Positions 2,537-34,145 are shown, counted from the stretch's first letter. The stretch is 64,000 nt of DNA from Amphiscolops sp. MND2022 (GCA_964187785.1 OZ076409.1:23190001-23254000), one strand, 5' to 3'. Notes: generated from the letters alone by a model not told the origin. Made by a program: numbers and translations.

Positions 2537-2619
2537 TCCGCAGGCTTGCGACAGTGCTGCGTTGATCGCCTTGTAATGGTCTAGTAGCTCTTCAGTGATT
2601 TTGATTTGTTTATCTGCTT

Positions 2620-11299: not shown

Positions 11300-11688
11300 G
11301 CTATGCGCTGTAGTTGGAAACCACTCAAAGTACCGGCAGTATGTCCGTGCAGAGACCCTTTTAGCCTGTCGCATTCCCCTCCAATGCAACAAGGGCGGTT
11401 ATGAACAAATGCGACATGATGAAATCCGAGACACCTTCGCCGCCAGCATGAAGGAGGTCTGTTTTGATGTCGAAATCGAGCCGAAGCTCCAGCCGTTAGA
11501 AGGCGAGTCCTTCGTTCATAAAACCACGTCAACTGAAGACGAAGCAAGAATAGACATTAAAGCCAATGGACTCTGGGATCCACGTTTCTGTCGAATTTTT
11601 ATCGACGTAGAATTTTTTGACCCACTAGTCAAATCATGCCTAAAAGAAATCAACGATGCATACAAGTTCCACGAAACACAAAAGAAAC
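11300..11688 (+). mobile_element. CRE-clade (RLE-type) non-LTR retrotransposon 3' fragment, left part
   Basis: C..GG...MRHDEIRD, VEIEPKLQPLEGE, ARIDIKANGLW, FIDV: zinc knuckle plus restriction-like endonuclease. Confidence 0.8.
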
Positions 11689-11957
11689 TGTACTGACCTA
11701 CATTAATAACCAATAGTATTTAGATGTTTATAGAATGTTCTAGAATGTACATTTATTTGTTATTGAATGATTGTAAATCTCTACTCCTTCAGAGAGAGAA
11801 AACTAATAATCAGTATTCAGTTGACTTCCTTTTTGTTCTACTCCTAACACCTCGGAATAGTTGTAATAAAGTAAGCTAGCTAGCCTGTCTCTCAGCCGCT
11901 TTTAGTAGTTGCGTAGACGACCATCAAAAACAATAACCAACCATTAAAAGCAGCACA
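11689..11957 (+). repeat. 5' LTR of element B (269 bp)
   Basis: TGTACT...GCACA; I count 4 substitutions versus 29895-30163. Confidence 0.97.
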
Positions 11958-11960
11958 ATT

Positions 11961-11975
11961 TGGTGCGACTTGTAA
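11961..11975 (+). promoter_or_regulatory. Primer binding site of element B (TGGTGCGACTTG...)
   Basis: TGG 3 nt after the LTR end; tRNA not identified. Confidence 0.7.
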
Positions 11976-12199
11976 AATTTTTCTTCTGCCTTTTCTCCTG
12001 GATGATTTCTCTTCTCTCAACAATCATACAAATACCACTCTCCATATTTGAAATTCTCTGGAATTGCAGTGAAATCTTTCTAGAATTTCTTGAAAGTTTG
12101 GTCTGTGACTTTCTAAATTTCATTAATAAATACATCATCGTTCGAAACACAATTTCTCCACTACAACAATCAACTTTAATATAACAAAGTTTCTTCACT

Positions 12200-12531
12200 A
12201 CCGGTTTATCACGTTTTCTAACACGTTGACACGGTTCTTCTTCCTGTTCTTCTAGCCATACCGGTTTATCACGTTTTCCAATACGTTGAAACGGTTTCAT
12301 TTCGGACTGATTTATCCATTGTGACACAGTTCTGTTTTTCTTCTTTTTCCAGACTGATTTATCCAAAGTGACACAGTTCTGTTCTCCATACTGATTTATC
12401 ACAGCTAATCCGGAAGCTTGTTGAAACAGTTCTCTGATGTTTGTCTGGTTTATCAAGGTTTTCTAACACCTTTGACACAGCAACATTTGTCTGGTTTATC
12501 AAGGTTTTCTAACACCTTTGACACAGCAACT
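12200..12531 (+). repeat. Degenerate tandem repeats in the leader of element B
   Basis: Recurring GGTTTATCA(C/A)G.TTTTCTAACAC units; near-exact ~46-bp duplication at 12440-12531. Confidence 0.85.
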
Positions 12532-14057
12532 TTCTTCAATCCTGCTATCTTGAACGTCAGGTGGACTCCTGGTGTAATAGTTGACTGAGTGCATGTCCAA
12601 CTCCGCTCACCTATAAGCACATACGTCTCAAGATCAACTTCGTGTTGGCAGAAAACCTGGATTTTCTACTTTTACGTTTCGGATCCCCTTTCTACAAAAT
12701 TTCCTACAAAAAATTTCAGAAATAGACTCTGAAAACAAAAAAAAGGCAACCAAAACTAACTACCAAAAACAACCACGCACTATTCCCTTTCTTTCCCCAT
12801 TGTCGACAAACAATACAAATAAATTCACAAAACTTAAATAATACAAATAACTTCAAAAATGTTTTCAATAACCAACAAAAATAACAATAACAAATAAACT
12901 CAAACTTACCTCAAGTACTTCCAATAATAATAATTTTAACATAATCCTACAAAACAATCATTTTAACAAAATACAACATACAATTTTCACAACTCTTTTG
13001 CTTTAAAACTTAAAATAAGGCATGTAAATAACACAAACAAAGTAAAGTTAGTTTTCTACTTTCAGGCACCCACAATTCCTATCCCCTCCCGTAAGACTTA
13101 GCCAATCAGACAGCCTCACCAGCGTACTCTGATTCTAAGACTGACTAAAAACCTTAGTTAAGTGTAAACGTTTTTAAGGAGAATCGAGAGGACACCGAAC
13201 TACGTTCGAATCTTCAAAATTCTCAGGAAGTAAAAAGGAAGTAAAAGAAACAAAGATCAAATTTTGATCTTGATCAGTATTGATCAGACTTTGGATAGTG
13301 GACGTTGATTGTTCAGAGTTCCACTCCTTTAGTCTTAAAACACACAACCCACTTAAAATTAAAACAACCTTAGTTTTTTCTGGACGTGTCAGTAACCTTA
13401 TGTTAGACACCTTAAAGTGATCCAGACTTAAAATAACATTTAGTTTCTGTTAGCAATCCTTTGAGGTTGAATACAGATCCTACTGCACCCGCTTATTTCT
13501 TCTCTATCCTAAAATATTAACTTCTCAAATAACTTCAAATTACAATACAACTTATATGAACCCAAACCAAGAAATTTATCCTTTCAACTTTTACATTCCA
13601 CCAATTAGCTCACTTCAAAACCCTACACCAAACGATTTTGAAAGATTAATTGAACGATATCAACGATATTTCTTCTTTATCATAAATCAACAAAGAAATT
13701 ACCCAAGAGCTCGAACTTAGAAAATCTTTATACAAGACATTTCAACGTTATAACCTTCACATTATAACATGTGGGAAAAGGTTACCACAGTAGTACTCAT
13801 TACAACATACACGTTTTGTGTCTTACTTATAGTTTGTGTTCTTCTTGAAAAAATACTTACAGTGATAAGAGATAAACTTTCAAAATGTCCTCAACGACAA
13901 CCCCTCTACCTTTCCAAACTCCCGTCATTAAAATGCAAAAGTTGTAAAATTAGAACTAAACCCATTTCTACAAAACATTATTTCACATTATACACAACCA
14001 CTCCCATTTGAAAATGAACCACACACAATTGAAACAATCCCTCTTATTAGAGAACAT

Positions 14058-17000
14058 TTGGACACATACCTTTTCTATATTAGATATAAAGTTTTAACAA
14101 TCACCGAAGAATACCCAACTTTTCAAATATCCTTTCCTCAACAAAGTATTAACTCATCTCATATATACAGAAGAACAATAAACCCAATAAACCTTCAAGT
14201 TCCTAATAAACAAGTTTTTCATGCTTTTCTAAATAATGTAAAAGACCACAATTTAGCACACGAAATTCCAGAATATAGTCCAAATGCACTCGACGATCTT
14301 CAACGATACATAGACAATTTCGACGTAGAAATTATTGAAACATTGGTTACTCCTGAAGACAACCCTCATCATTGGTTACAAGCTGATATATTACGAATTC
14401 AAAATTTCATCTACCACTACTTCAAAGACCTAACATTAAATGACCAAACAATTCCTCAGATCAAAGTAATATCTTTATTTCTCAGAAAATACTTCAGATT
14501 TAATTATCAACTATTATGTTCTCAACAAGATCAATCTGCTTTTACAGCATTTCCAGATCATTTTACATTAAAAGAATGTTTACCATTCATCATCAGTGAA
14601 CAAAATGAACACCCTTACTTTCATAAACCACAATTAATTACAAAACAAACCTTAGATTACATACGTTTCGATCCTCTATTAATTACAGAAAATGATCTAT
14701 TCCCAGATAATAGACCTTACCACTATCAACAAAATTCTCAAGATCAACAAAATTTACATTTTAACACTAACAATTCTACTGAAGATGATAACACCGGTCA
14801 GGAAAATACAACCCAACAACAAAATCAACCTGAAAACTATAACGATAATGAGTTTACTACCCAAGAATCTACAATCTCAACATATAATCCATCACAAACA
14901 GGGACATCAACATCAGTACATACTCACTCCTTTAGAGTTCCCACTAGAGTTGTAAATCAAAGACAAAATATACATAGTCCTCAATCTCATTTAGATACAT
15001 CTCCAAACCGTAATATAACTTTTAACCTTCCACATACAGATGACATAAACGATGAAACCCATGATACATTACAATATAATACTATGACTACATCTAGTGC
15101 TCAGAATACTTCTGCTAATGTTGCATCTCCAACAAGAACTACCTCTGATTCTACAAGATACATTACTCGACCTAGATATGATCCTCCATCAATTCCCTCC
15201 GCCTTTCGCCCAAACAGATCGACCACATCTAGTAACAATTTTAATGATAATCCTCAAACTTCCAACCGATATTACGATCCATTTAATTATAACTTTTATC
15301 CTCCATCAAACACAACTACCAATACAAATATAAACCAAAACCACTCTCAAATTAATACAATTTCAACAACACAAAACCCCTTCATACAATTATCAAATAC
15401 CAATACGTCTCAGAATATATATTCTCAAAATCGAGGAACCTCGTGTACTTCCATTTCTTATTCTAATATTACACAGGATTCTCAAAGAAGACTTCATAAT
15501 CCTCCACTTACACATATCCCAACTGATCCTCTGTATCGAATGCATCCAAATCCAAATCTTAACCCTAATCCTAACCCATTCTCACCAAATACAGTCCAAC
15601 ATATACCTCCACCACTCACACAACAATTAGCTTCTTCACCCCAATATCTACCAATGCCACAAGATACCTTTATAAACATGTCCGCTTCAATACCAGAACC
15701 TATGAAACCTTTTGATGGTTTGGACCATTCTTACACCCCCGAAGAATATCTACAACAAGTCGAAGCAAGATTAACCTTCGCCATAGGTGAAGAACCTCAA
15801 AATAATCCTATAAAATACAAATCTTGGCATAATAGACGCATGGCTTACATACAATGTTCATTAATAGGAACAGCTCTCGATTGGTACACTAACCTCCATA
15901 CATCATATAAACAACAATGGAATTCCTTTGTACAACTATTCAAAAAACAATTCTCATCTCAAAAAACTGCTTACTACGCTCAAGTAGAAGCTATGTCACT
16001 CATAAAAAAGGATAATGAAACAGTTCGCCACTTCGCCCTTAGAGTACAACAATTAGTTAAAAAGGGATGGTGTAATGAAAATGCAGCTACCATAAATCTC
16101 AAAAATAATGAAATCTTTACAAAAGGGTTAGCAAAGAAGTTAAAAGATTTTGCCCATAAACGACAAGTTAAACATGTATCAACATTACTTGAACCTTCAA
16201 TACCATTTCATACACTTGTTAGACATGTCGATTCTGAAGATATTGCTAATGAAAAAATCAGAACTAACGACTTGACCCTAGAAATAAACAAAGTATCGCT
16301 TGAAGAGGATACTAACAAAAAAGAATTTGAATACGAAGATCAGATAATGGTTACTCAAACTGGAGACCCAAATAACAAAAGCAAACCAGCGTATAGAAAA
16401 TATTGTTCCTATTGTCATAAAAATAATCATAGTATTTCAAATTGTTATCAAAAACAACGTGATGACGAATACCAGAAATACAATAACCAAAGATCACGAA
16501 CTCCTCAACAATCCTTTGTACAATATTTTCGCAGTAAACCTAATAATCCTCAGGAAAATCGAAATGAAAATACAAACTCTTATTCCTCAGATAATGATCG
16601 TATTAAATATAATCAAAACTACTATAATGATAGATACAGAAACAATGATAGATATCGTAGCAATAGTAGAAAATATTCGCAAAACACCTATAGATCAAAC
16701 TCTCGACAAAGATATTATAATCGATCCCGAAGTCCGTATAGATCTCGATTTGATAATTATTATCAAAGAAGAACACCATCTAGATCTCCATATAGATCTC
16801 CATACAGAAATAACTCAAATTACAGATATAATTCTCGCTCAAGATACAGATCTCGTTCTCAATCACAAGGAAACTCCTTTAAACGATATAATTATCCATA
16901 TAGATCTCCATCAAGACCTAGAGATTTTAGATCAAGATCTAGAACACCCTCAAGAAACAGACAACAAAACAGAATAAATCAAGTAGACGTTAAATCCCCA

Positions 17001-20000
17001 AAAGAAAATGATAGTACAAAATTTGAAATCCACACCTGTCAAATGACTGAAATAGCTAATACAATCACCCTTTATAGTTGGTTTTATCCACTATATATTC
17101 ACGCCTCTGAAACAAATGACAACATATTACCTTCAAAATTAGAAATCTTATTCCTTTTAGATACTGGAGCTTCCATATCTGTTTTGAATTTACCAACATT
17201 TCATGTAATTTCCAAACAATTAAACATCAATGTTCCAACTAACCTCCAAAACAAAAGAGCCAAAACTCTTACAGTTGCAAACCAAACTGAAGTACCAATA
17301 ATACATTTTATTTCGATGACCTGTTTCACTGAAGTAAATCACAAAACACGATCCTTCAATATCGATTTTGCCGTAGCAAATATCAAATACAACATTCTTG
17401 GAACACCCTTTTTCAAAAAGCACATCCAAAATATTGATTTTCAACAAAACATTATGACGTACACAGAACAACATCCAAAGCTTTCAACAAAAACTACATT
17501 TTCTACATTTACAGAAAAAGATTATCCATATATTTCTTACATTTATACTATTAAATGTAAGGAACCAATTCACTTTAAACCAAGGTCAGGAAAAACCATA
17601 CATTTTCCAATTAAAAACTATTCAAATCTACATTTTGAACTCGAAGATAATACGAAGTTCTACCCAACAAACCCATATACATATTTCTTACAAAAATTTA
17701 AAAATATCTTTCATTTCTTAGATATGATAGTCAATGAAAAAAGCAAAGACTCATGTGCAACCATAATTCAAAACTTTACATCTTACCCAGCTACATTACC
17801 ACGAGGAATTATTGGATATATAGAAATACCTATTACGCAAACAACTCCTCCTCACTACAGAGTTAACGATGTAAATTCACTCACTCACTCTGTAATACAC
17901 GCATATCACCCTGATACCACAACCCCGATTAAACAAATTCCATATACAGATATGAACTTATGTACTAGGGTAATACCACAATCCCTATTAGAAATAAACA
18001 AGATGGAAATTAACGACAAAACACTTCAACTTCCTATACCTTCTGTTACTGGAAACCTTCGACATTCAGATAAAATTCGAAAAGATTTCCCTCCATTAAC
18101 CTATTCTACAGAAAACCAACAATTCATAAAGAAGTTCAATTTCGAATACTCAGATTTAACCGATACAGAAAATGTAAATCTCTGCAATATTCTAATTAAC
18201 AACCAAAGGTGTTACGCCAAACATAAAAACGACGTAGGAAAGATTTCTACTCCTTTTCGAATTATAATAAAAGATAATTGTAAACTTCACACACAAAGAC
18301 CTTCTAAAGTACCTATCCACTATAGAGATAGACTAAATAAACTTTTACTAGAACTCGAAAAATACAACATCATAAAACAAATTGGTTCGACAACAGATGA
18401 AAAACATACTATTGGAACAACATTTTTAAACCCTTTAATTATTATCCCAAAAGGAGACGCAATAAAAGTTGTTTTAGACGCAAGACATCTAAACTCAAAC
18501 ACTAACCAAGAACTTGAATCTTGGCCTATTGAACCTTTAGCTCCTCAATTAGCTAGAGCAAATAAAAAATACAAATCAACTATTGATCTAATGTATGCAT
18601 ATGCTCATACACCATTAGATGAAGAAACAATTAAACTTACAGGATTTTCATCCGGTGACAAATTATACGCCTTTATCCGTGGATTTTACGGATTAAAAGG
18701 ACTTCCAAACTTTTTCACAAAACAAATGTCAACTTTCTTTAGATCACTTATAGACAAACGTTCTGCGTTAGTTTATATAGATGATATTCTATTACTCGCA
18801 AATGAAAAACAAGAAATGTTTGAACTTATAAAAGAATTACATACAATAGCATCTCGAGAAAATCTCAAACTTGCACCTGAAAAATCGTTCTACATGTTAC
18901 TCAAAGTAAAATTCCTTGGACAGGAAATTGGTAACAACACAATTAAACCAATTCCATCCAAAATTGAAGCTATTAAAAGAATCCCATCACCAAAAGAAAA
19001 GAAAGATGTTATGCAATTTCTTGGCAGTGTTAACTTTTATTCAAAATTCATTGAAAAACTTCATATAAACTTTAAACCATTGTATACATTACTACATGAT
19101 GATGTTAAATTTCAATGGACACCTGAATTAGAAAAACTATTTCGAAATGTTAAAAACGCAATGACAGCAGACACTGAATTAACAATACCCAACACCACGC
19201 ATCCATTTTTTATAACAGTAGATGCTTCGTTAGTAGGTTTAGGCGCAGTCTTATTCCAAATGAACGAAGAAAATAAGATGAAAGTAATCTCTTATAACTC
19301 CAGAATTCTCAATACACAAGAACAAAAACTTTCAACTTTAGACAGAGAACTTCTTGCAATAGTTTACGCATTACAAATATATGATTTTTTGATCATTGGA
19401 TCTCCTCATCCTATATATCTCTTCACAGATCACAAGCCTTTACTACATTGTTTCGCAAAGAAAGGAAATCTTAGTCCTAGATTCTATAGAGCACAAATGC
19501 AATTAACCAAATTCTCCAAATTAAAAATCATTCATACCCCTGGAAAAAATTTAACTGTGGCAGATATGCTTTCAAGAACCTTTACAAAAGAACAGCTACA
19601 AGTACACCAATTACGACACAAACAATTACCACCTCAAATAGATTTCTCTATCATGAAAGATAATTAACTCAAACCAGTACATTATTTAGTAAAACATGAA
19701 GAAATAAAATATAATCAAAAGAATGATTGTCATCCTATCCTTGCTGACTACGGAGACGACCAATTCTCCATCCGTATAAATAACAAAGGAGAAGATATAC
19801 ATATAAAGCCTTTAGATTCCTTCTCTTTTCAATCTATTGTTCCATTCGAATCAAAATATAAAAAGCCTACAAAAAAACAAGCAAAATCTCTTTTACAACA
19901 ATCGACAATTCTTAATGATACTGACATTCTTAGTGATGAAGATGAAATAACACCATCAAATAATATCCAACAACAAAACTCGAACATAGTAAAAGAATAC

Positions 20001-21921
20001 ACCCTCGCTATACAATATCCTACCAAATCTGACTATTGTAGACAACAAGTTCCATTTTTTGATCCATCCTTTTTCAAATACAAAAAATATTTTAATTACT
20101 TCTTCCTACCAGAAGATACACAAATAACCATTGAAACAATAAAAGCTCAACAAAATTAAGATACTGTTTTACAAAAGGTTTACCAATGGATACTTAATAA
20201 TGAAAGACCCTTACAAATAGACCCAACAATTGCAGCTAACTCTTTCTTATTAGTATATTACAAACTCTTCAACCAATTATATATTAATCATGATACAAAA
20301 ATTATTCACATAGATTATCCTAATCTTCACGATTCCAACCCGAATCAAAGAGACAAAATATGTCTACCATTTAAACTTTTCCACACAGCTTTTAACAAAC
20401 TTCATGCTCATGGACATTCAGGAATAAAAATATCCATCAAAGCTTTCAACCAATTTTACTTCATACCGTACCTGAATAAATGGATGTCAATATTCATCCA
20501 TGATTGCATTGAATGCCAACAAAATAAACATATTAACCAAAAATTACAAACTGCATCTATACAAACCTTCTCAGAAAATGCTTCATATTTTAATTACCGA
20601 ATATCAATGGATACAAAAGGACCTATAAACCCACCATCAAATCAAAATTCATACATTCACGTTATAGTAGACGCTTTTAGTCACTTTGTAGTAACAGTAC
20701 CCATAAAACAAAATAAAGCTCAAAACGCTGTTAACTCATTACTACATCATTGGATAACAAAATTTGGACCTCCTGTATACCTAGTTACCGACCCTGGAAC
20801 AGAATATATTATTTCAGAATTTGCAAATCTTTGTACCACAATGGGAATTAGACATTCACCAAGAACTCCTCATGCACCATGGACAAATGGTTTAGTTGAA
20901 AATCAAAACAGAAATCTTGGAACTCATCTCAGACTTTTCTTACATAACACTCCAGAAAATTGGTCAACTCAAGTCCATATGTATGCTTATGCACATAATT
21001 CACAACCACTTTCTGAATTAAACTTATCTCCATATGAAATAGTATTCCATACTATACCCAGAATTCCAATCAACTTTGAACTCAATCTCCAAAGAGATAC
21101 ATATAGAAATTGTACTTCTCAATATTGTCAAGAATTACCACTTCATACACACTATGAAAAATCAAATCTAAACCCTTTCTTTCATAAAATTTTATCTAAA
21201 CCAATTCCACAATGGATCTTAGCTACTGAAACTGCTATGATACAGATATACCATACGGTATATGAAAACACAAAAAGAAAGACTAATTCCTATGCTTATT
21301 TTAACAAAACATATCACAATCCAAGACCCTTAGATATTGGTACATTTGTACTAAAAAGAAATTTTCTCCATGTTCATTTTTCCGATTAAATTAAAACCTC
21401 TCAGAATTGGCCCATTCAAAATTATTAACAAACTCTCCGATATAACATATGAAATTGTTAATCAAGATGGTTATACATCGCACATACATAGAAATCATTT
21501 AATTCCTTATTATCCAAAAGAACCAGTTATTTTCCCTTTCATACAACAATATAACCCTCATTTATTTAATGATTGTCATTCAAATACAAACGATCAAATA
21601 ATTAACTCTCATGAAGACAAATTTACAGACGAAGAACAATTTCCTTCCACAACATTTAATAAAGAAACGGATATACCATCCACGATTGACTTACAACCAG
21701 AACCATTTAACCAATATTTTTCATTTCCATATAAACAAAAAGAACAAATTCCTCAAAATACCTCCCTGGATAACCAATCAGATGTTCATGATTATGATAA
21801 TTTTATTAATCCCCGAAGACACTCCTATATTAGATACAATTTCCGCTCACAACCAAGAAAAGACTACCGACTCTTCCTTGGTGAAAAGGATATAATTTCA
21901 CTTTCTCAAAAATCCTGCTGA
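14058..21921 (+). pseudogene. gag-pol: Element B gag-pol polyprotein (single frame; stops at 19665 and ~20158, frameshift at ~21380)
   Basis: MKPFDG, TALDWY, CSYCHKNNHSISNC, LLDTGAS, YIDD, VDAS, TDHKPL, ADMLSR, HAHGHSG/CIEC, ISMDTKGP, VDAFS, IGPF; a disrupted N-terminus probably begins at the ATG at 13556. Confidence 0.93.
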
Positions 21922-22132
21922 AATACGGAATACAGAAAGAAATACACACAAAGAAAGTTTGAAAGAAAGAAAAAGTTTGAAGCTTAATGCGAAAATAAAT
22001 GAAATTTATTTCACGAATGAGAATAAAAGAAAGAAATCCTAATTGATATAAAACTATAACTATTTTACAAGCTGAAACTAACTATCATAACACAACGATT
22101 TCAAAATTGATAGACATATTCACTCACCATCA

Positions 22133-23614
22133 TCAACTACAAATAACTCTTTTTCTAGTTCAACACATTCACTCCAAAGATTACCTGAATATACAGCATA
22201 TTTAAACTCAGATACAGACATACTGGATTCCTCATCCTCAAATCCCAGTCCATCCGCTCCATATACTCCTTATAGAGTACCAACAACACCCACTAATACA
22301 CCTATATCCCAAACTCAACCACAAATATTAACAACTCAATCACAACCTATTTCACGAAATCTAACATTTTTAGAAACAAATTCACCACTTTCTGACTCTA
22401 ATGATGAAACACCTACAATACCAAATACACAAGATACTTCAGATATTTTGAATAGACCTCCTCTTCCACCGATTACTACCACTCGTTCTATTCATATCCC
22501 TGATCCTAGCTCAGTCCTACAATACATAAATCCTTGTCCACACAAAGTACCAACTGCAACGAAAACAAAAAGAAAAACTCCTTTACCTACATTACCACAA
22601 AATCTTGATTTACCATCATCAAGTAATATCCCAATAACATTTTTACCAGAACCTTCATTAAAATCACCAACGAAAAAATCACAACAATACCCAACTCCTC
22701 CACCATCGGAACTAAGTTCCTTCACATTTTCTCAAATATATCCCAAGCTTGAATTACAACGTGTACATTCAACAACTACCTCTTCATTAACAGATTTATA
22801 TCATAAAGATAAAGACTCTGACTCAACTGCTAGTACTAGAGTACCAAGACATAATTATAACCTTCGATCTCAACAACAAAGAGATTCTCAAGAATTACAA
22901 TCCTTAACTAGTTCAAGTACAAACTCAAGACTACTTCGACAACACGCCCAACCCAGATTGGACACTTCTTCTCTTTCCTCATCTCAGCCCACTATACCAT
23001 CTTCTCTATCACTACCATTTCAAATCACATCAGGATTTGAAACAGCCTCTCTTCTTTCTGAAGAGCCAGCAACTATATCAGATAGCGCAGCTAATTTTTC
23101 ATGAGTTTACTCACCTAGTTCAATAGCATCAAACTCCCCTATACAATTACCTGAATATTTTTTAGAAGAATCCTCAAGACCTCCATCGCCAAATCCTCAC
23201 GAATATCCTATTCGTGTTAACTCAAAAATTGTTCGCACGCTTAACGAAGATCCTCGATACACGGTATTACCTGCAAGATTTATAAACAATAGTTCACTCT
23301 CAATTCAAAGAAAACAAAGAGAACTACGAAGATTACAAGAACAACAACTCACATTAAAATTTGAAGTAGAAGTCACATTCAACTCGTTAGGACCTCATCC
23401 ATTCTCTCTTTCAACAAGAGTAGCACATAAAACAACCCCATCACCATTCATTGTTACCTCCATTTCCTACCTTTGTGACGCAGATTTACCTGAGATTAGA
23501 ACAGGACAAATAAACTTTTTAATCCCTACTCAGGACTCAATTATAGATCAATATTTTAACCATGAACCAAATCACCTTTACCTTTCATTTAATATATATA
23601 ATACAAGTTGTTAA
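22133..23614 (+). pseudogene. Element B ORF between pol and env: Ser/Pro/Thr-rich with a more complex C-terminal ~110 aa; function unknown
   Basis: The frame of ORF 22448-23104 is open upstream and continues past one stop (23102); no ATG seen, so it may be spliced. Confidence 0.6.
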
Positions 23615-26134
23615 ATACACGTATATAATAAATATAGTTCACTCTTTAGTTCACCCTTCAACTGTTCCCAAAGTTGACACCACCAATTCCGAAAATCATA
23701 TTTCAGACCAAGATCCTAACATTTTAAACTTAATGGTATCTCATTATGATTGTGCAAAACAAAATAACTTAAGACAATTCAGTTTATTAAATGTAGAACC
23801 ATGTAAACAAGCACCCTCAGATATACAACACACAAAAACCCAAGCAACAGTTTACGTTAGAGCAAAAGCCAAAAGAATAAAAGCCTTTAAATGTGAAGCA
23901 TATATAAAGACTGAGAAAGTCTGGTGTTCACAAACATTCACATCTAGTAGACGATATGATCGTTTACAATGAAGACAAAACACATTAGAACTTCCAAAAA
24001 TATTAGACCCTATTGAATGCAAAAATATGATCAGATATTTAAACGCGACTGATAGCGAAGAATTAAACAACTACAATATACAAAGCTCTTTCTCATTGTT
24101 CGACGATAGTAATTATCAAAACACAATTGAACGAATTCAGACACCATTTAGAGTAAAAAAATTAAATACATGGCATATTGGAACCTTCGTATTTAACGAA
24201 AATTATCCTGATTGGATAATGTTACACAAAATACATACTCTAGATGTCGATCAGACCGCGAACATTTAATTACCCGACAAAGTTGGAAACTTAGAATTGT
24301 TAACACCGCAATAGATTATGACGATAAAAACAATCAATTAATACATAACGGACACATATTACCATGTTATCATTCAGACGGATTTTGTAAACCAACGACC
24401 AAAACTCCATATACATTAACATGGTTTGATGAAAAAGTTTGCCTCATATTTCAACTTCAAGAATTCATTGGTAGAATGACACGAATCAAAGATAGATATT
24501 GGATAGAAACCGATACCTTCATTGAAACTTCAAACATCACACAAAAACTTCAAACCGAAGGAATACAAGGAACAAAATACCCTAATATAAAAACACCACA
24601 ATCAAAAGTAAGCAATCCAAGCCTTTCTCAATTTGAAATATACCCAATTGCACAAACCTTCTGTGGAAAACCTGAACCATTATTTTCAACACAATATGAT
24701 GACATCTTTGTTACATACTTAGATGGTTTTGATATGAACACATGATTACCAAAACCACACTCAATAATTGACCAAACAATTAGTGGAAATATAAAATATG
24801 ATGATTCAAACAAAAGGTATATATTCCCTGCATTGAATATATCAAACAATTTCGCCACTTTAGACTATGATGCCCACATTAATACAAAGATTGATTTCAC
24901 AATAAATCATGTATTTAAATCCATGACAGTACAAGAACTAAACACTCTTCATACAATATGTGAACTAGAAAGAACTCAACTGTTAACAATACTATCAATG
25001 TCAGTTAAAAATCCCCAATTAGCCGGTTTTCTTTTAACTGGAAATCGTAGTAACTTTCTCTACGTTGAAGGATCTACAGCATGGCTGTATGATTGCCCTC
25101 ATTTTATATCACCACTATACAAGGCAGATAAATGCTTTGATAGAATTCCTATACACTACAGAGAAACAATAATGTATGTTGACCCAATAACAAGACAAAC
25201 TTTTAACTACGCAACACCAATTGAATGTGGAAATAACCCACAAAATATAATAGAATTAGATCCAGATTCCAACGACGGAGATTTTTATGTGTTAACACCA
25301 GAACCACTCAAACGAGAAGCACCACAAATGTTTAAACCTACTCAAATTAAAACAACAATCACTCCTGATACATTTACCGCCCAAGATGCCGGTATATACT
25401 CAAATGCAGAATTAGATCAATTCTGGAATAGAGTATTATTTGCTAAACATTCAGACACAACTCTTCAATTACTTGGAAAATCATTAAGCTATGATTTCAT
25501 TTCAATGCATAATGAAAAACACTCATACTCAGGACATAATCCCTATAATCATTTAAGGATTGGAGTACATGACCACTTGTTAAATCTTTTACCACTTTTT
25601 AACCCTGACTGGTTCAGTCAAGCATTCATTAATTTCTTTGGATACCCATGTTATGTTTTAACCCAATGTGGAATTTATTTTTCAACATTCCTTTTCATTA
25701 GAGAAGTTTTAACATTTTTACTCAAATTCTACAGAACAATTAGCATAAAATATAATCTCCAAAGCAACATTTCCATTTTGAGTTCAATAGCCCATGGATT
25801 TTTTAATATAGTTACATCGGAAATTGTAACCGATTTAAATAATACAGGAAAACGAAAACGGATATACACTAAACACAAAATTACAACAAGTGAAAATGAT
25901 AATATCCTATTGCCGGAAAAAGAATTAAACAATAAACGAAGACACTCTGATACTGACTCCCCTTATTTACCTCCTAAATATTCCAGTAAGAACTCAACAT
26001 TTCAATCACCGCAAAAGACACACCCAACTAATGTAAACGATATTAATTCTCAGGACTATGACCCAATAATGTCAAATGTAATAGCTGTACTGGAAAGTCC
26101 TGCTAAAGTCTTTATAAAATTCAATCCCTCCTAG
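23562..26134 (+). pseudogene. env: Element B env-like glycoprotein (~855 aa), resembling class III chuvirus G / gB-type fusogens
   Basis: Hydrophobic N-terminus, SHYDC, Cys-rich ectodomain, TICELERTQLL...NPQLAG...WLYDC...KCFDRIPI...YVDPITR...IEC, C-terminal TM; stops at 23970 and 24743, frameshift ~24215. Confidence 0.85.
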
Positions 26135-26550
26135 CTTAAAAGCAATAACTTAAAAAACAAATTAACCTCAAGAAAAGTTCACAAAATTATCAACCAAATT
26201 CTTCTCAGTTTCAACTTTCATTCACACCCAAATTCTCACTCGGACCGGTCTCTCCTTTTCAACTCAACTCAACTCTCAACCAGAAGACTTCAACTGGATT
26301 TTCAGTCCATCTAAACGACCGAAATCACAGAAGTTTCTATTCCTGGAATAGATGCCACTGTGATTGTTGATGTTTTCAACCCATCATTGACCCAGTATTC
26401 CCATATTGTAAGTACAATTTAAACTTTAATTTTACCAAACAATTTAATGGATAGAAAAGACATAACAAAATTTTTCCTTAGTATTAGAAATAATGTAATC
26501 AAATGTTATAATTATTATTTTAGCTCTACAAAAACACGCAAGTTTAAATA

Positions 26551-27843
26551 ATGGAATCCTTGCCCGAAATTGATGTAGTTAACTCTAATCCCTCTGAATT
26601 GCTTGCAACCCCTTTGAATATAACTATTCAACAAAATGTTAACGAAGATAATAACTCTTCCTCCAACTCTCACGACCCTATAGAAAATATCCCTATTGAA
26701 CAAGTAGATCATGTTAACACAAGATCTCAAAAAAGAAAGTACCCAGATATAACCGCAGATAAACCTTTTATGGAATCTGGCGCTTGCCCTCCTTTCATAA
26801 AACCAATTAAACAAGATGAAGATAGAGATTGTGAATTAGTTCCTATTCTCTCGTCGAAACAATTCACATTTCAATCTCAGTTAACTTCGTTATACATGAT
26901 TCCAACAAAATACAAATTCATCATCAGAGAATTTAAAAATGATTATCATACATCAATTGCTTCAAAACTGATTACCCCATATGATTGGTGGTTAAACAAT
27001 AAAGTGAAAATTTTCTCACTTCAATACAACTTCCTCAGACCATCTCCATATGATCTTCGAACAGAAGAAAATGATGCAAATTTTTTGCCATATCAAATCA
27101 AAAAGGCCCACCATACGACTTATCAAAAGTTCCTTCAATATAAAGAGCCCGATAATTATATATTCTTCAACTCCAAATATACATCGCCATTCACTTTCAA
27201 CTCAGAATATTTAATAGATCATACCAAAACAAAAGGAAAACATAGAAATTATGACCCGCTGAAACAAAGTTTTCTCTTCCTTCCAAATGATAACCCAAAA
27301 AGACCAATCATTGTTCCACAAGAATACCTCATTCTAAACGACGATTCGTTACTACAAGAAGATATACCTCAACATATATCTGATCCTCTTCCTCCACTTC
27401 AACAGATAGCCTCTCAACCATTGGGAGACTGTGAAAAGTCTTATTTCCACGCAATGATCAAAAAGGAATATTCAAATAATGAATTAATTTTCATTATTTC
27501 CCACCTACTTTCACTTATTACAAATGGAAATCACAAAGAAAATAAAAAGGCAAAACAAGAATCGCCTAAGAAATCCAAAAATGATATTCCTCAACCACAA
27601 AGGTTTCGCCCAACAGATGAATTACAGAAATATACAGAAATTCTGAATATCATAAAACCGTATCATCATCCAAACCGAGATATTCTTGTAACAATCGCTG
27701 AAATCGTAAATACCCTTGAACAAGCTCGAAGCATAATACAAAATATCGTATTTGATACGACAAGAATTAGCCAATCAGCTTTGTGCATTCGCACATCCTT
27801 AGACGAATTCAACTACACTATTGAAAAAATGCATCGATCTTAA
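26551..27843 (+). CDS. Element B accessory ORF, 430 aa, unknown function
   Basis: Intact ATG-initiated 430-codon ORF in AT-rich DNA between env and the 3' LTR. Confidence 0.75.
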   Translation: MESLPEIDVVNSNPSELLATPLNITIQQNVNEDNNSSSNSHDPIENIPIEQVDHVNTRSQKRKYPDITADKPFMESGACPPFIKPIKQDEDRDCELVPILSSKQFTFQSQLTSLYMIPTKYKFIIREFKNDYHTSIASKLITPYDWWLNNKVKIFSLQYNFLRPSPYDLRTEENDANFLPYQIKKAHHTTYQKFLQYKEPDNYIFFNSKYTSPFTFNSEYLIDHTKTKGKHRNYDPLKQSFLFLPNDNPKRPIIVPQEYLILNDDSLLQEDIPQHISDPLPPLQQIASQPLGDCEKSYFHAMIKKEYSNNELIFIISHLLSLITNGNHKENKKAKQESPKKSKNDIPQPQRFRPTDELQKYTEILNIIKPYHHPNRDILVTIAEIVNTLEQARSIIQNIVFDTTRISQSALCIRTSLDEFNYTIEKMHRS

Positions 27844-28364
27844 CTGGTAATTATGGGATAATAGCTTTAAAGTTGTTAACACTTATCATTTAATCTCTTA
27901 ACAACCTGTCAAAATTATTTGAATCTACACGCATATGCCTGCTATGCATGATTCTAATACATGCTTGATGTTAAAATACACTTTTAAAATGAAATAACAT
28001 AAAATTTTCAATCACGACATAAAAATTTTCAACGAAATTCTTCAATTGCTCCTCCTTTTAATGGACCGATTTCAACAAATAAGTACTTATATGAAAGATA
28101 TTTAAATACCCTTCAAAAAACTTCCAAAATACAACAACTTAATTCTTAAAATTAAAAAGTTATAACATCACAAAATTCAATAAAAAAATGTCAACTACGA
28201 AATTCTATTTTCAAAGGAACTTTATTGTAAACAAACTAATCTATTTTAGGTGAATATCGTCACAACTGCTTCTTCAGCATTCCTTCCTCCTCTCAGGTCA
28301 CCCATTCAAGAAGAATTCCGAAGTATCTTCTACAGCTTTCAACCAAATTTTCTCATTCTTCAAT

Positions 28365-28841
28365 ATGACAACTATCCACTCTGGCGACATTGACTGCCCG
28401 ATAGCTCCTTTTCTTTCAATCTCTTCAGCTCGATTGCGATCCTTGATCCTGAAAAAGCATTTAACGACATTAAATGCGCAGCTTCGAACAGAAAAAAAGG
28501 CAGACCCACATCTTACAAGGATGATATTGCTTAATATGTTCCAAATATTCCAAATAACAAGAATAAATTTCGACCAATATCTCCATATTCATAAACATCC
28601 TGACACTTATTCAACTCGAAAGGATGCCACTACCCAAACAGAACATACTACCATCAAACCCAAGCGTTTAATACGAACTCTATCCAATAGAATGCGTTCC
28701 GAAATGGAAAAACAACGTCTAAATTCATATTGGCCCTCAGATGACAATGATGACACTGACGAAGACCTTCAAAAAGATCCCCCAGAAGCACTTATAGATG
28801 ATAATTACCCACACAAAACATATACTTACGTTTCCTTCTAA
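28365..28841 (+). CDS. Element B accessory ORF, 158 aa, acidic C-terminus
   Basis: ATG ORF, preceded by an acceptor-like CTATTTTAG|G near 28249. Confidence 0.5.
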   Translation: MTTIHSGDIDCPIAPFLSISSARLRSLILKKHLTTLNAQLRTEKKADPHLTRMILLNMFQIFQITRINFDQYLHIHKHPDTYSTRKDATTQTEHTTIKPKRLIRTLSNRMRSEMEKQRLNSYWPSDDNDDTDEDLQKDPPEALIDDNYPHKTYTYVSF

Positions 28842-29387
28842 TATCAACAGACGCCACCAACAGCACCCGTCTACTCCCATCTTCGAATTCCACATCTTCA
28901 ACGAGCAACAGATCAGCACCCATCTTCAACTTCACCGCCGCCCAACAGTTGCCCACCTTCATTCATCTGCTGACCCTTCTTCTTCCATCTTCCAATCGTC
29001 CATCGTCACCCACATGCTCAGCCGAAGATGATCGATAAGTAATAATAAAGAAAACTCAAAGAAAAACATTGTGCATGATAACATTTCGAAAAAGTTTCAA
29101 ACTCATCTAATATTTCATAGAATTCAAACTCTCATCTAAATTATTCATTATGTAGTTATTATTTCAAATTTCATCCCCACCCACATTTATTTGCCCAAAA
29201 ATTTTTATTCACACCTGTACCGATATTTATTTGCTTTATTTTTAAAGAATAATTAGTAATAAGTATTATTTTTCGGTGCTATCGTACCCAACAAAAAATT
29301 CACAAATATTATCAACAAATCTTTTCAAATTTCAACAAAACCAGCTCCAAATCAGATCACGCACATTGTTCAGATCAAATTCGAATA

Positions 29388-29796
29388 ATGACAGACCCAA
29401 GTTCTCAAAGTTTTCAACATTTGTTACATAACAAACCCGCCAAAGTTAATTACAACCTGGAATCTTTTCAAACGTATTTCACGTTCGATAAAAATTTTTT
29501 CTCAACAATATTATTTCTTTGACTCTTTGACCTCTAACTCGTATGATGTTTGCTCACGTTTGTTCAATGCGAAGTTCATTCAAAACTTCAACAGAAGCAT
29601 AAAATTGAGCATCTACCAGTTCAAAAAACAAGCCGACGAAAGCATAGTGAAAAAGAACACTTTGACGCTTTTGAACTGTAGTCGCACCTACGAGGTGTCA
29701 ATCAAAATTTTGACAATTCGAGGTACACCAATGAGTCGAACTTACACCACTCTTAACGAGACTTATGCCAATCATCCATCAAATGAAAAATGTTAA
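29388..29796 (+). pseudogene. Possible last accessory ORF of element B (frameshifted)
   Basis: ATG at 29388 (MTDPSSQ...) shifts into ORF 29527-29796. Confidence 0.35.
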
Positions 29797-29878
29797 CTAG
29801 CTGAAACGCTAAGAACATTTAAACAAAAAATTTTTCTTCATTTCAATTAATGATGCTACTTTAAAATTTTATTTTATT

Positions 29879-29894
29879 TAAAAACCGGGATGGA
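29879..29894 (+). promoter_or_regulatory. Polypurine tract of element B
   Basis: AAAAACCGGGATGGA abutting the 3' LTR TG. Confidence 0.7.
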
Positions 29895-30163
29895 TGTACT
29901 GACCTACATTAATAACCAATAGTATTTAGATGTTTATAGAATGTTCTAGAATGTACATTTATTTGTTATTGAATGATTGTAAATCTCTACTCCTTCAGAG
30001 AGAGAAAACTAATAATCAGTATTCAGTTGACTTCCTTTTTGTTCTACTCCTAACATCTCGGAATAGTTGTAATAAGGTAAGCTAGCTAGCCTGTCTCTCA
30101 GCCGCTTTTAGTAGTTGCGTATAAGACCATCAAAAACAATAACCAACCATTAAAAGCAGCACA
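29895..30163 (+). repeat. 3' LTR of element B
   Basis: Direct repeat of 11689-11957. Confidence 0.97.
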
Positions 30164-30167
30164 AAAC

Positions 30168-30463
30168 TCAAATATGAGTCGCGAAATATCATCGATGGAA
30201 AGAGCACTTTCAACCCGCTCGTATTGGCCTGCACTGGTGGAGCTGGACCATCAGTCACAGAAGTCATAACCCGACTTGCGTCAAATGTCAACGAAAAAGG
30301 TAATGAAAGCTATTCTGAAGCCATTAGCTATATCCGAACCAAAATAAGTTTCGCCCTACTTCACAGCTGCGTGCTCTGTCTAAGGGGCTGTAGGTCGACG
30401 CGCTGTAAACCAGCCACGGAATCATCGATCAGCGCTGTTGTCAACGAAGGAGGGCTGTCATGA
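30168..30463 (+). mobile_element. CRE-clade non-LTR 3' fragment, right part
   Basis: PLV.ACTGG.GP...RLA...YSEAISYIRTKISFALLHSCVLCLRGCR. Confidence 0.8.
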
Positions 30464-30584
30464 ACCGGACAATACTTCGGGTGGGACTAATTCTAGAATC
30501 AGAACTTTTTTCTTTTCTCTGGACGTTCAGTAAATTTGAGATACGATAACCTAGTTCAAAAATCATCCTCCACTTGCCGTTTTT

Positions 30585-30669
30585 TCAGATTTTGTATTTT
30601 TATGAGACCGTTACTGACACTGTAAGTCCTACAGTGTCAGTAACGGTCTCATAAAAATACAAAATCTGA
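30585..30669. repeat. Perfect 40-bp inverted repeat with a 5-nt loop
   Basis: 30585-30624 is the exact reverse complement of 30630-30669. Confidence 0.95.
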
Positions 30670-31754
30670 GGCGGCTCTGCAGCTTGCAGCGTTTTGACAC
30701 CTGATCTCTTGCCATACACTTTTATATTTAAATTTACCGTCACGCCCCCTCTGCACTATGGCAGATTAGCTTTACAATATTGTAAAATCAACAAAGGTAG
30801 ATTCAGAAAATGTCAAAAAATGAACAAATCAGGCACTTAAAATTTGGAAATACAGTTTAACGTGTAAATATTTTGAGAAAAAAACTGAGCATTTTCTGTT
30901 TCCAAATAGTAATATCCATATGGATCCAAAATAGTTCTACCGAAAGTCCCCTTTGTCCATCTACTTACTTCAATTGAGCAGTAAAGATGTCCCCTTTGAC
31001 AATAACGCACCCATACCAGATTTAACGCAAGCCGGATATAAGTGATACTGGATATAACGTATACCGGATATAGCGTTTCTTTTAGAAAATTTCAATGATA
31101 CCAAAGGGTCCCTCTTTTAATTTTCAGAAACTTTAGAATTGATACAAAATCATTTGAAGACAAAGGGTCCCCCTTTAGATTTTTCTTTGGCGCAAATTGG
31201 GATTAACGAATACCGGAATTAACGTATTACGGACATAACGTTTCTTGGAAAATTTTTCAATATTAGAAAAAGGTCACCTTTCGATTTTCAGGAAGTTTAG
31301 AGTTGATGAAAAATCATATAAAGCCGAAGGATTCCCCTTCGGATTTTCTCCGGTATTGACAGAACGTAATCTTTTTCAACTTAACTGAACAGCTAGTTTC
31401 ATTCTCAATACTTTGAGAATCATGTTTTTCAGAAATTATTGAAACAGAAGAGTCCATAATTTTTTTGGTGTTTTGAGCTACGGGAAACGCGGCTTTCAAG
31501 TCTTATGGGCATTCCTTCGGGTTTTTTGGCACTGTAATCTTGAAGAAGATTTCTGAATAGTGTCCTTAAAGATTGATTTTTGGCACTTTGGGACGTTTTT
31601 CCGAGGAAAACATTTTGAAAAAATAGGTTTTTGTTGTTTGCAGTGGGGGAAAAGGTTGTTCTTGAGCTTTATGTGTATTCCTTTGAGAATTGTTTTACTG
31701 AGAAATTAATAGAATTTCAACCAGGGTGTTTTTTGCATATTTAAGAACCTTGCT

Positions 31755-32333
31755 TTCTAGTCGGCGCTTTTTCTTTTTAAGGAAAAATGCTCGCCTGTTA
31801 CAGTGACCTTTTTTCTTCAGACCACAGACCTCACACTGATCCGTCCACTTTTTAGAGAAACTCGTGAAACCACTAAGGCCAAGTCCGGCCAATGCAAAGT
31901 AAGTGCAAGGGGTCCCCTTTTTTAAGGTAACCTACAAAACCGGACGAGATTAAAGGGTCCCCCTTTTTGATTTTTTTTCGGCACTGTGCGAATTTTTTCC
32001 GAAATTTTTTTAATGTCTCAAAAGGGTCCCCTTTCGAGTATCTTGATATTTTGCAACAGAATGTATGTTATTAAGTCTTAAAGGGCCCCCCTTACATTTT
32101 TCGGCACTATGCAACATTTTCCGAAAAAAATCCGAATTTTTTTTAAAAAGTATTTGTTTTTGTTCCAGTTGTAGGAAAAGTGGTTTTCAAGTCTTATCGA
32201 GCTTGAAAGGCAACCTTTGGGTGACTCGAAACTGTTTTCTGAGCTTTTCATAAATACATCCTGGGCATATTTCAAAAACTTTGCGCTTTTTGAGCCTTAG
32301 ATAGAGCGCCGCCTTTAGACGTTCTCGTCTTGT
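31755..32333 (+). mobile_element. HINE-like (Helentron-associated) non-autonomous element, copy 1
   Basis: 5' AGTCGGCGCT, 3' AGCGCCG(C)CT plus AGACG-TTCT-CGTCT hairpin plus TGTT. Confidence 0.6.
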
Positions 32334-32782
32334 TTATGTTGGAGGGAATACGATACAAATACGAAAAGAGCACGTGTTAAAAGAAAGGCGAGTCGTAGCA
32401 AGTTGAAGAGGGTTTCGTATACGCTGCAAGCTGCAGAGTCGATTAGCGATTCAAACTAGCGACAACTAATAGAGTGTCTAAATTCAAAACTTCCTCGGAA
32501 TATACACGAAGTTTCGAAATGAATTTTGTAAAGTTCCACTGTTAGGCCTGTAATAAAACTCACACTGTATGAGAAATTTTCTTGCAAAAATTGAAAAAAG
32601 TCATCATTGGATTTTGAAACATACTGAATTGAAACAATTTATAGTTACAAGGCGAAGTTTTTCAACGAAATAGCGATTCTGGAATAGCGGTTTAGCGAAT
32701 AGCAAAAAAATAGCGATGTCAAAATCTTTTCTGAATAAGTCGGCAACAAATGTCTGAATAAGCCCTGAAAAGGACACATTTT

Positions 32783-33515
32783 TGGCTCTTGTCTGTTTAG
32801 AACAACCCCCCCCACAACCGCCCCCCCCAGCACCACCAATTTTTATTTGGAAAAATAATGAAAAACAAATCAACAGCTTCCTGTTTTGAGTCATCAATAA
32901 ACACTTAATACGAACATAATTATAATCAAAATGTGTGAACAATGTTTTGTTCAAGCAAAAAACTATTCTAATGGACGTTAACTTCCTGTTATTAAAAAAG
33001 TTGGTTCTTTTCTGTAACCCCCCCCCCCCCCACCACCAAAATTTTTAATAAAAAATTAGTTAAAATCTTATAACAAATAGACTTGAATACAAACCAGAAA
33101 GCTTCATTTTCAAATTTATTCTCAGGGTGATAGCTTAGGATTCAGATACAAACTTTTTTCACCCTTTTTCCTTATGTAGTTACGCATTTTTGATGAAGAA
33201 ATCAACAGCTTCCTGTTTTGAGTCATCAATAAACCGTAAGTGTGACACTTAATACGAACATAATCATAGTCAAAATGTGTGAACAATGTTTTGTTCAAGC
33301 GGAAAACTACTCTAATGGAAGTAAACTTCCTGTTATGAAAGAAGGTTTTACTTTTAATTAGGCTAGTCCAAAGTTTTTAAGGAAAGTTATTTTCAAAAAT
33401 TTTGGTGGTGGGGGGGGGAAACAGAAAAGAGCCAAAAAGTTAATTAGGCTAGTGTAAAGCTTTTAAGGAACTTTACTTCCAAAAATTTTTAGTGGTGGGG
33501 GGCAGAAAAGAGCCC
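32783..33515. repeat. MITE-like cluster of inverted C-run/G-run units with an internal ~130-bp direct repeat
   Basis: TTGG(C/T)TCTTTTCTGT..CnACCACCAAAATTTTT (33001-33046) is inverted at 33395-33434; further copies at ~32783 and ~33481; 32868-32995 repeats at 33200-33335. Confidence 0.65.
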
Positions 33516-33727: not shown

Positions 33728-33942
33728 CACCTGGCTGATCTATCTAGTGAAGTCTTTGATAATGCTCTAGAAGCAACTCTGACAAATTCAGGCCCCACAC
33801 CGACCCCAATGGCAGTTCTCCGCCGGGTCACAGTAAGTCCTCCAACTAAGGGCGTTAAGTCGTCTAGTTCCTGCAACGGGGCTGGCGAAAAAGTTGCAGG
33901 GGTCCCGAGTTGGACTGACATTGGAAGCCAGAGTTTATTGAG
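33728..33942 (+). CDS. Candidate host-gene internal exon (HLADLSSEVFD...SQSLLR)
   Basis: TTTTTAG acceptor, stop-free GC-richer 215 nt, AG|GTG donor-like end at the gap edge. Confidence 0.4.
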
Positions 33943-33945
33943 GTG

Positions 33946-34145
33946 NNNNNNNNNNNNNNNNNNNNNNNNNNNNNNNNNNNNNNNNNNNNNNNNNNNNNNN
34001 NNNNNNNNNNNNNNNNNNNNNNNNNNNNNNNNNNNNNNNNNNNNNNNNNNNNNNNNNNNNNNNNNNNNNNNNNNNNNNNNNNNNNNNNNNNNNNNNNNNN
34101 NNNNNNNNNNNNNNNNNNNNNNNNNNNNNNNNNNNNNNNNNNNNN
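33946..34145. other. Assembly gap (200 N)
   Basis: Run of N. Confidence 1.

What the first reader, a model, noticed from the sequence alone, without database searches (positions are those of the whole stretch)
23562..26134. Env of element B looks like a class III (chuvirus G / gB-type) fusogen, not errantivirus F-type
Seen: an ~855-aa frame with three lesions: signal-like N-terminus, HYDC, spaced cysteines, the block CELERTQLL..NPQLAG..G.....VEG..AWLYDC..KCFDRIPI.Y....YVDPITR..ATPIEC, then a TM segment and tail. Established: errantivirus Env is related to baculovirus F, while chuvirus-like or gB-like glycoproteins are known mainly in BEL/Pao elements. Inference from remembered motif pattern only: an independent capture of a class III fusogen by a Gypsy lineage.
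Basis: partly seen in the sequence, partly recalled or inferred. Interest (0 to 1): 0.75.

Follow-up and report, generated by a model that had tools for sequence, protein, structure and literature searches.

The report
Gypsy retrotransposon with chuvirus-like envelope
This is a broken copy of a large, abundant jumping gene that carries an envelope gene predicted to fold like the membrane-fusion proteins of chuviruses and herpesviruses; the pairing is real but already published across many animal groups, so this is most likely a new member of a known kind.

Summary
Observation confirmed: 23562-26134 holds about 858 codons with three breaks, the quoted motifs and 14 conserved cysteines, inside an 18.5-kb Ty3/Gypsy element with paired LTRs. 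Class III is well supported: Pfam Monjiviricetes_fusion (E 2e-20). A model of a 96-97% identical natural relative matches chuvirus, xinmovirus and qinvirus G (E to 1e-30) and herpes gB, though with low TM-scores. The novelty claim fails. Chary & Hayashi (eLife 2026, PMC13524379) report gB/chuvirus-type env beside Gypsy pol; their table of 1,512 elements carries the ENV_HSV label 221 times. This scan also found the kind before on other DNA. A local capture is unlikely: two metagenome loci carry the same env family behind a pol 45-49% identical to this RT, against 23-25% for other Gypsy RTs in the window. What may be new: the size, extra ORFs on both sides of env, and the host group (an acoel worm according to one unchecked note; no acoel names in the paper's supplements). 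Fusion activity is untested.

The parts
11685..11688 (.). left target-site duplication (AAAC; repeated at 30164-30167)
   Evidence: empty site in the paralogous repeat near 38017. A 3-bp reading with a 1-nt longer LTR fits the letters as well
11689..11957 (+). 5' LTR, TG...CA
   Evidence: 4 differences in 270 aligned positions against the 3' LTR
11961..11972 (+). probable tRNA primer-binding site (TGG start, 3 nt after the LTR); tRNA not identified
   Evidence: motif absent from the supplements of PMC13524379
13932..19667 (+). gag-PR-RT-RNase H frame, 1911 codons stop to stop (first Met at codon 385), ended by an in-frame stop
   Evidence: Retrotrans_gag, RVT_1, RT_RNaseH; best PDB hit Ty3 RT, E 1.4e-37; CCHC knuckle, LDTGA, YIDD
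19668..21921 (+). rest of pol: bridge, integrase (H2C2, rve) and C-terminal GPF/SH3-like part, broken by a further stop and a frameshift
22091..23614 (+). Ser/Thr/Pro-rich frame of about 506 codons between pol and env, one internal stop, no Met, no family
23562..24266 (+). env, first piece: weak signal-like helix, HYDC, 5 conserved cysteines; in-frame stop at 23970-23972
24212..26134 (+). env, second piece after the frameshift: 9 conserved cysteines, in-frame stop at 24743-24745, predicted central helix (about 24866-25000), beta-rich crown, membrane-proximal helix, TM-like segment (about 25667-25723), low-complexity tail
26548..27843 (+). accessory ORF after env, 431 codons, open; no family, no confident fold
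   Evidence: 297 homologues; pLDDT 35
28254..28841 (+). second frame after env, 195 codons, no family
29895..30163 (+). 3' LTR, preceded by a short purine-rich tract

Best explanation
The region is the broken env gene of an 18.5-kb Ty3/Gypsy LTR element, and its intact relatives encode a protein predicted to be a class III membrane-fusion glycoprotein that would likely coat the element's particles and fuse them with another cell, moving the element between cells of the host. Shown: the element's anatomy, the three breaks, the protein family, and the link of this env family with a related pol at two other loci. Predicted: the class III fold (model of a 96-97% identical relative). Inferred from known class III fusogens and from Drosophila gypsy: entry into the secretory pathway, trimer formation, display on budding Gag particles, fusion without furin cleavage (probably set off by low pH, as in rhabdovirus G and GP64; recalled), and spread from soma to germ or stem cells. 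The env-pol pairing is likely old and inherited together, not a fresh capture. This copy cannot make a whole Env or a whole Pol, so it is a decaying copy that could at most be moved by intact sisters.
For: Pfam PF24664 on the window's own pieces and on the env ORFs of L001 and L007 (E 7e-38, 4e-32). Foldseek PDB: 36 of 36 rows shown are herpesvirus gB, best E 1.4e-12. BFVD: the top 10 are chuvirus-like, xinmovirus, qinvirus and related negative-strand-virus glycoproteins (1 unnamed), E 1e-30 to 3e-21, against 3.7e-16 for the best gB. VIA-wide: the top 9 rows are gB, rabies G or Chandipura G (Z 8.6-5.6), with domain-level fits to PRV gB domain IV (Z 6.5, rmsd 3.7, 156 aligned), HCMV gB (Z 6.7, rmsd 2.8, 79 aligned) and rabies G PHD-FD (Z 7.1, rmsd 5.2, 140 aligned). 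14 cysteines nearly invariant (lowest 34 of 36 rows) across an alignment reaching 21% identity. Full-length open env in several subfamilies at 50-68% identity. L001 and L007 hold Gypsy pol, then this env family, then extra ORFs; RT-RNase H identity 49% and 45%, against 23-25% for the two other RT matches in the window. Same kind published in PMC13524379.
Against: The model is modest (mean pLDDT 64, pTM 0.39), global fits are poor (TM-score 0.24-0.38, rmsd above 10 A), and the best VIA Z of 8.6 is near the background of 7-8 that the tool warns of. The fold was computed on a relative, not on the window copy. Signal and TM segments are weakly hydrophobic in this subfamily, and the stretches where fusion loops would lie are largely polar. 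Only 2 of 9 metagenome loci reach as far as pol; the other 7 show no pol. The env tree has no viral or published rows, its careful search did not finish, and deep branches are weak.
Confidence: 0.8

Rival explanations
1. Class III fusogen, but captured separately from a chuvirus-like virus at the root of this Gypsy lineage (window, L001, L007 and kin), independently of the published gB-type errantiviruses.
For: Best structural hits are chuvirus/xinmovirus/qinvirus G rather than gB. [quoted passage not shown]
Against: The paper describes its gB-type class as resembling Chuviridae envelope genes, so the same hits are expected for published members. No viral protein is closer than 17%, while retroelement-type relatives reach 38%.
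Confidence: 0.2
2. A recent, local capture in this host alone.
For: The window env and its four close relatives form one clade on a long branch (support 100, length 0.79).
Against: The same env family follows a related pol in two loci from other collections; 2,681 cluster representatives match the profile at E <= 0.001.
Confidence: 0.04
3. The protein keeps the class III fold but no longer drives infection in this subfamily; it serves in budding, receptor blocking or particle transfer by another route.
For: Weak signal and TM hydrophobicity; polar or basic residues where the loops are expected; the mechanism is unknown for published gB-type elements too.
Against: All 14 cysteines and the central helix region are conserved over long distances; distant relatives have similarly polar loops, so polarity is a family trait; close relatives have clearer hydrophobic N-termini.
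Confidence: 0.12
4. A one-off non-retroviral endogenous viral element, or a BEL/Pao (Anakin-type) fragment, that landed inside a Gypsy copy.
For: Chuvirus glycoprotein EVEs and Pao-borne copies are common in mosquitoes (abstract of 10.1101/2020.02.15.950899).
Against: 1,585 sequences in the 90% cluster; same strand and base composition as the element (A 0.40, G 0.12 against 0.38, 0.11); no BEL/Pao or viral polymerase/nucleoprotein family among the 10 element frames scanned; pol-linked elsewhere.
Confidence: 0.02

Closest known systems
HSV/gB-type env-carrying Ty3/gypsy 'errantiviruses' (Chary & Hayashi, eLife 2026, PMC13524379; read: abstract, sections 3, 6, 7, 8, 14, 22, first parts of 5 and 9, passages, about 100 of 1,512 rows of Supplementary file 1, term searches of all 7 supplements; figures not held)
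   Same: LTR-gag-pol-env order, Gypsy pol, class III env likened to chuvirus G and gB, conserved cysteine frame, furin site not always kept, many copies.
   Different: 18.5 kb against at most about 13.3 kb LTR to LTR in the rows I saw; 1.6 kb and an extra frame between pol and env, two more frames after env; this copy is broken; host group possibly not sampled (no acoel or xenacoelomorph names found).
Anakin: mosquito BEL/Pao elements with chuvirus-derived glycoprotein (Dezordi et al., 10.1101/2020.02.15.950899; abstract and outline only)
   Same: Chuvirus-like class III glycoprotein inside an LTR element.
   Different: Carrier here is Ty3/Gypsy, not Pao.
Glycoproteins of chuviruses, xinmoviruses and qinviruses (Pfam PF24664 Monjiviricetes_fusion; BFVD hits such as A0A7T3R0N6, A0A0B5KJV8, A0A8K1XCH1)
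   Same: Sequence family and best structural matches.
   Different: Only 11-17% identity in the top rows; encoded by a retroelement; long low-complexity tail.
Herpesvirus glycoprotein B (e.g. PDB 2gum, 9e5v, 9uv4) and rhabdovirus G (9kep, 4d6w)
   Same: Predicted domain set: PH-like domains, long central helix, beta crown, membrane-proximal helix.
   Different: About 10% identity; gB needs partner glycoproteins for entry, none recognised here.
Drosophila errantivirus F-type Env (gypsy, ZAM; baculovirus F-like)
   Same: Same place in the element and the model for soma-to-germline spread.
   Different: Different fold class; no F-type Pfam hit at E <= 1; no R-x-K/R-R furin motif in 31 of 31 long relatives.

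Membership tests
Class III viral fusogens | PH-like domains I/II carrying the fusion domain | tested here: met
   rabies G PHD-FD Z 7.1 (model 87-387), HCMV gB piece Z 6.7, rmsd 2.8; on a model of relative P0131
Class III viral fusogens | Long central helix (domain III) and beta-rich crown (domain IV) | tested here: met
   helix 437-481 at pLDDT about 70-80; PRV gB domain IV Z 6.5, rmsd 3.7, 156 aligned
Class III viral fusogens | Conserved cysteine framework | tested here: met
   14 positions nearly invariant; all present in the window copy; pairing not determined
Class III viral fusogens | Two hydrophobic fusion loops | tested here: inconclusive
   the expected loop stretches are largely polar; loop 123-135 has low pLDDT; positions assigned by analogy (recalled)
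Class III viral fusogens | Signal peptide and C-terminal membrane anchor | tested here: inconclusive
   terminal helices present, hydrophobicity weak in this subfamily, clearer in relatives; no signal-peptide predictor on hand
Class III viral fusogens | Trimer | not tested
   no complex prediction run; a pass would follow from likeness to solved gB
Class III viral fusogens | Membrane-fusion activity | not testable with these tools
   bench question
Ty3/Gypsy (Metaviridae) | gag with CX2CX4HX4C, pol order PR-RT-RH-IN, GPF/Y motif after integrase | tested here: met
   GPF/Y named as a hallmark in PMC12440569
Ty3/Gypsy (Metaviridae) | RT closest to Ty3/Gypsy | tested here: met
   Ty3 RT E 1.4e-37, then caulimovirus-type and retroviral RTs; the PDB set is small, so no subclade can be named
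Ty3/Gypsy (Metaviridae) | TG...CA LTRs, 4-6 bp target duplication, primer-binding site | tested here: met
HSV/gB-type errantiviruses (PMC13524379) | Gypsy pol plus gB/chuvirus-like env between LTRs | tested here: met
   Intact frames were the survey's filter, not a trait of the kind; this copy is broken, env is open in relatives
HSV/gB-type errantiviruses (PMC13524379) | Place in the published pol tree and cysteine configuration (C1/C2 types) | not testable with these tools
   figures are not held and the published sequences could not be loaded
F-type errantivirus Env | Baculovirus-F-like class I protein with furin site and fusion peptide | tested here: not met
   family is PF24664, no F-type hit at E <= 1; 0 of 31 long relatives with R-x-K/R-R; positive class III assignment
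BEL/Pao with chuvirus glycoprotein (Anakin) | BEL/Pao-type gag and pol | tested here: not met
   Gypsy-type Pfam set, no BEL-specific family in the element's frames (names of those families recalled)
Troyka | CG...CG termini, no GPF/Y, no env | tested here: not met
   against PMC12440569 (first two of five parts read)

The most novel reading that the evidence does not exclude
A little-sampled lineage of 'complex' enveloped Gypsy elements: 13-18 kb, a chuvirus-like class III env flanked by accessory genes (one unnamed domain plus coiled coil follows env in 4 of 9 outside loci), missed by a survey whose filters capped region size and the pol-env gap, and expanded to more than a thousand copies in an acoel worm. 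It would be the first enveloped retroelement reported from that phylum and could stem from its own capture of a negative-strand RNA virus glycoprotein.
Probability: 0.3. Interest if true: 0.5.

Novelty: new member of a known kind. Interest (0 to 1): 0.27.

Why it matters
It adds a large, very abundant family to the gB/chuvirus-type enveloped Gypsy elements, whose way of entering cells is still unknown (PMC13524379). If the host is an acoel, it fills a gap near the base of bilaterian animals and tests the paper's claim of a pre-Cambrian env-pol pairing. The accessory genes around env suggest regulation like that of complex retroviruses.

Tried and rejected
No whole genome is held, so copy number and dN/dS could not be measured on DNA. 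IMG/VR scans with two env alignments: 36 and 28 pattern matches, none confirmed. Sequence-only PDB searches with env profiles found nothing credible. ESM Atlas for env gave leads only (0.89-0.85; the top three clusters carry GP64, Monjiviricetes or rhabdovirus G families, but flavivirus E, ISAV HE and arenavirus GP also appear at 0.85-0.87). A third protein search with the distant profile returned 4 proteins, none named; 0 named members were read in 14 clusters, so hosts of relatives are unknown. Sequencing runs: no RNA holder listed; two DNA-like runs at small shares hold further copies in short contigs; nothing on expression. Accessory ORF 26548-27843: no Pfam family, no Atlas hit, failed fold. 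Its homology to the domain after env in L001/L002/L006/L007 looked plausible by eye but was not shown: hhalign E 0.2 whole, 0.04-0.47 on hand-picked regions, HMM 4.8 bits with 6 of 1000 shuffles as high. Troyka and BEL/Pao rejected (see membership). Literature searches for acoel or xenacoelomorph env-bearing retrotransposons and for Monjiviricetes plus retrotransposon listed no such report; listings only, and most subscription journals are missing.

Full report
Observation. The frame starts with ATG at 23562 and ends at the stop 26132-26134. It is broken three times: an in-frame stop at 23970-23972, a frameshift near 24,220 and an in-frame stop at 24743-24745. Both pieces align without gaps to a natural 858-aa relative, P0131 (96.4% over 220 aa, 97.3% over 638 aa), which fixes the length and the number of breaks. 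The quoted motifs are there letter for letter. The N-terminus is only weakly signal-like (best 19-mer hydropathy 1.45) and the TM segment is weak (1.59), with a second short hydrophobic stretch after it.

The element. Env lies in an 18,475-bp element with LTRs at 11689-11957 and 29895-30163 (4 differences in 270 positions), TG...CA ends, a 4-bp target duplication, a TGG primer site and a purine tract. It sits in a repeat whose empty copy is at 37421-40595. Gag has a CX2CX4HX4C knuckle; pol runs PR-RT-RNase H-integrase with a GPF motif; the best PDB match of RT is Ty3 (E 1.4e-37). Pol is also broken, by two stops and a frameshift. Three unassigned frames lie around env: a Ser/Thr/Pro-rich one before it and 431- and 195-codon ones after it.

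What env is. Pfam puts both window pieces in PF24664 Monjiviricetes_fusion (E 1.7e-5, below the curated cut-off, and 2.3e-20) and gives no F-type family at E <= 1. A 44-row alignment reaching 21% identity keeps 14 ectodomain cysteines, all present in the window copy; none of its 31 long rows has an R-x-K/R-R furin motif. The AlphaFold2 model of P0131 (pLDDT 64, pTM 0.39) shows long beta strands, a 45-residue central helix, a beta-rich region, a second long helix and terminal membrane-type helices. Foldseek against the PDB shows herpesvirus gB in 36 of 36 rows, best E 1.4e-12. Against BFVD the top rows are chuvirus-like, xinmovirus and qinvirus glycoproteins (E 1e-30 to 1e-26, 11-17% identity), ahead of rhabdovirus G and gB (best 3.7e-16); one lower row is an orthomyxo-related 'hemagglutinin', which I recall as GP64-like. 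The Foldseek-independent search ranks gB, rabies G and Chandipura G in its top 9 rows, with domain-level fits at rmsd 2.8-5.2 A. Against this: global TM-scores are 0.24-0.38, the top Z of 8.6 is not far above the tool's stated background, and the model is of a relative. Three methods agree, so I put class III at about 0.95.

Is it an independent capture? The family is large: 296 hits, and 1,585 sequences in the 90% cluster, fragments included; 2,681 representatives at 50% clustering match the profile. A metagenome scan gave 9 loci from 29 pattern matches. Two reach pol: L001 (gag, pol, env, two more ORFs) and L007 (pol, two ORFs, env, one ORF); the other 7 show no pol, most being short. The window RT-RNase H is 49% and 45% identical to these two, and 23-25% to the other RT matches in the window. 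So env travels with one pol lineage across collections. In a quick tree of 35 env cores the window copy groups with its four close relatives (support 100) inside a wide set of 24-38% identical proteins; deep branches are weak, the careful search did not finish, and no viral or published rows were included. A fresh local capture is unlikely; a separate old capture at the root of this lineage stays open.

What is known. [quoted passage not shown] Their table of 1,512 elements has 221 ENV_HSV cells. Their first-pass filters limited regions to 10 kb and the pol-env gap to 0.5-1 kb, with wider windows for some phyla; among about 100 rows I saw, the longest LTR-to-LTR span was about 13.3 kb. Searches of all 7 supplements found no acoel or xenacoelomorph name, while the control Macrostomum was found; figures could not be read and long cells are cut. 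The host label 'acoel worm' comes only from an unchecked AI note on this genome (e1-9526668); I did not verify it. Three earlier notes of this scan reached the same verdict on other genomes.

Mechanism. Shown: anatomy, breaks, family, pol linkage. Predicted: class III fold. Inferred: intact copies make Env in the secretory pathway, trimers sit on budding Gag particles and fuse with a target membrane without furin cleavage, probably at low pH (recalled from rhabdovirus G and GP64), carrying the element to germ or stem cells as Drosophila gypsy does. The polar loop regions and weak membrane segments leave room for a non-fusion role (0.12). This copy's Env stops at codon 137 and its Pol before integrase, so it is not autonomous.

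Accessory genes. In L001 (two ORFs), L002, L006 and L007 the ORF after env shares a short unnamed domain followed by a coiled coil (pairwise E 2e-26 within L001, 2e-5 to 3e-3 between loci), with no Pfam or PDB match. The window's 431-codon ORF has 297 close homologues and a C-terminal helix, but its homology to that domain was not shown.

Verdict. Real, correctly classed as class III, and already known as a kind. New member; interest 0.27. The size, accessory genes and possible host phylum are the parts worth a further look.

Noticed in passing
L001:9651-12092, L002:2541-3137, L006:2318-4060, L007:13515-15365: ORFs directly after env share an unnamed domain of about 80 aa followed by a coiled coil; duplicated in L001; no Pfam or PDB match. 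A possible lineage-wide accessory gene.
   Followed up: partly
window 26548-27843 (+): Open 431-codon accessory ORF with 297 homologues (68-97% among the 120 listed), a conserved central core and a C-terminal helix; no family or fold.
   Followed up: partly
window 22091-23614 (+): Met-less Ser/Thr/Pro-rich frame between integrase and env, overlapping the env start; may be a pol extension or a spliced exon. L007 has 295- and 1032-codon frames at this place, with no detected similarity.
   Followed up: partly
window 23516-23533 (+): T-run followed by a pyrimidine-rich stretch ending in CAG, 28 nt before the env ATG: looks like a splice acceptor; untested.
   Followed up: no
window 13932-15083 (+): The gag-pol frame is open for 384 codons before its first Met, and about 2 kb lies between the 5' LTR and this frame.
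   Followed up: no
window 11689-30163: Strong strand bias: A 38%, G 11% on the coding strand, env included.
   Followed up: no
window 11086-11688 + 30164-32797 and 37421-40595: The element interrupts a 3.2-kb repeat with an uninterrupted copy nearby (89-93% alike); its frames at 11301-11693 and 30143-30460 resemble the end of a non-LTR retrotransposon protein (recalled, untested).
   Followed up: no
window 68-6581 (-), 33942-36803 (+), 42033-47373 (+): At least three other LTR-element remains with gag, RT or integrase families; a 200-N gap at 33946-34145.
   Followed up: no
window 57273-60624: Long inverted repeat, arms of about 1.1 kb at 87% identity: a foldback-like element.
   Followed up: no
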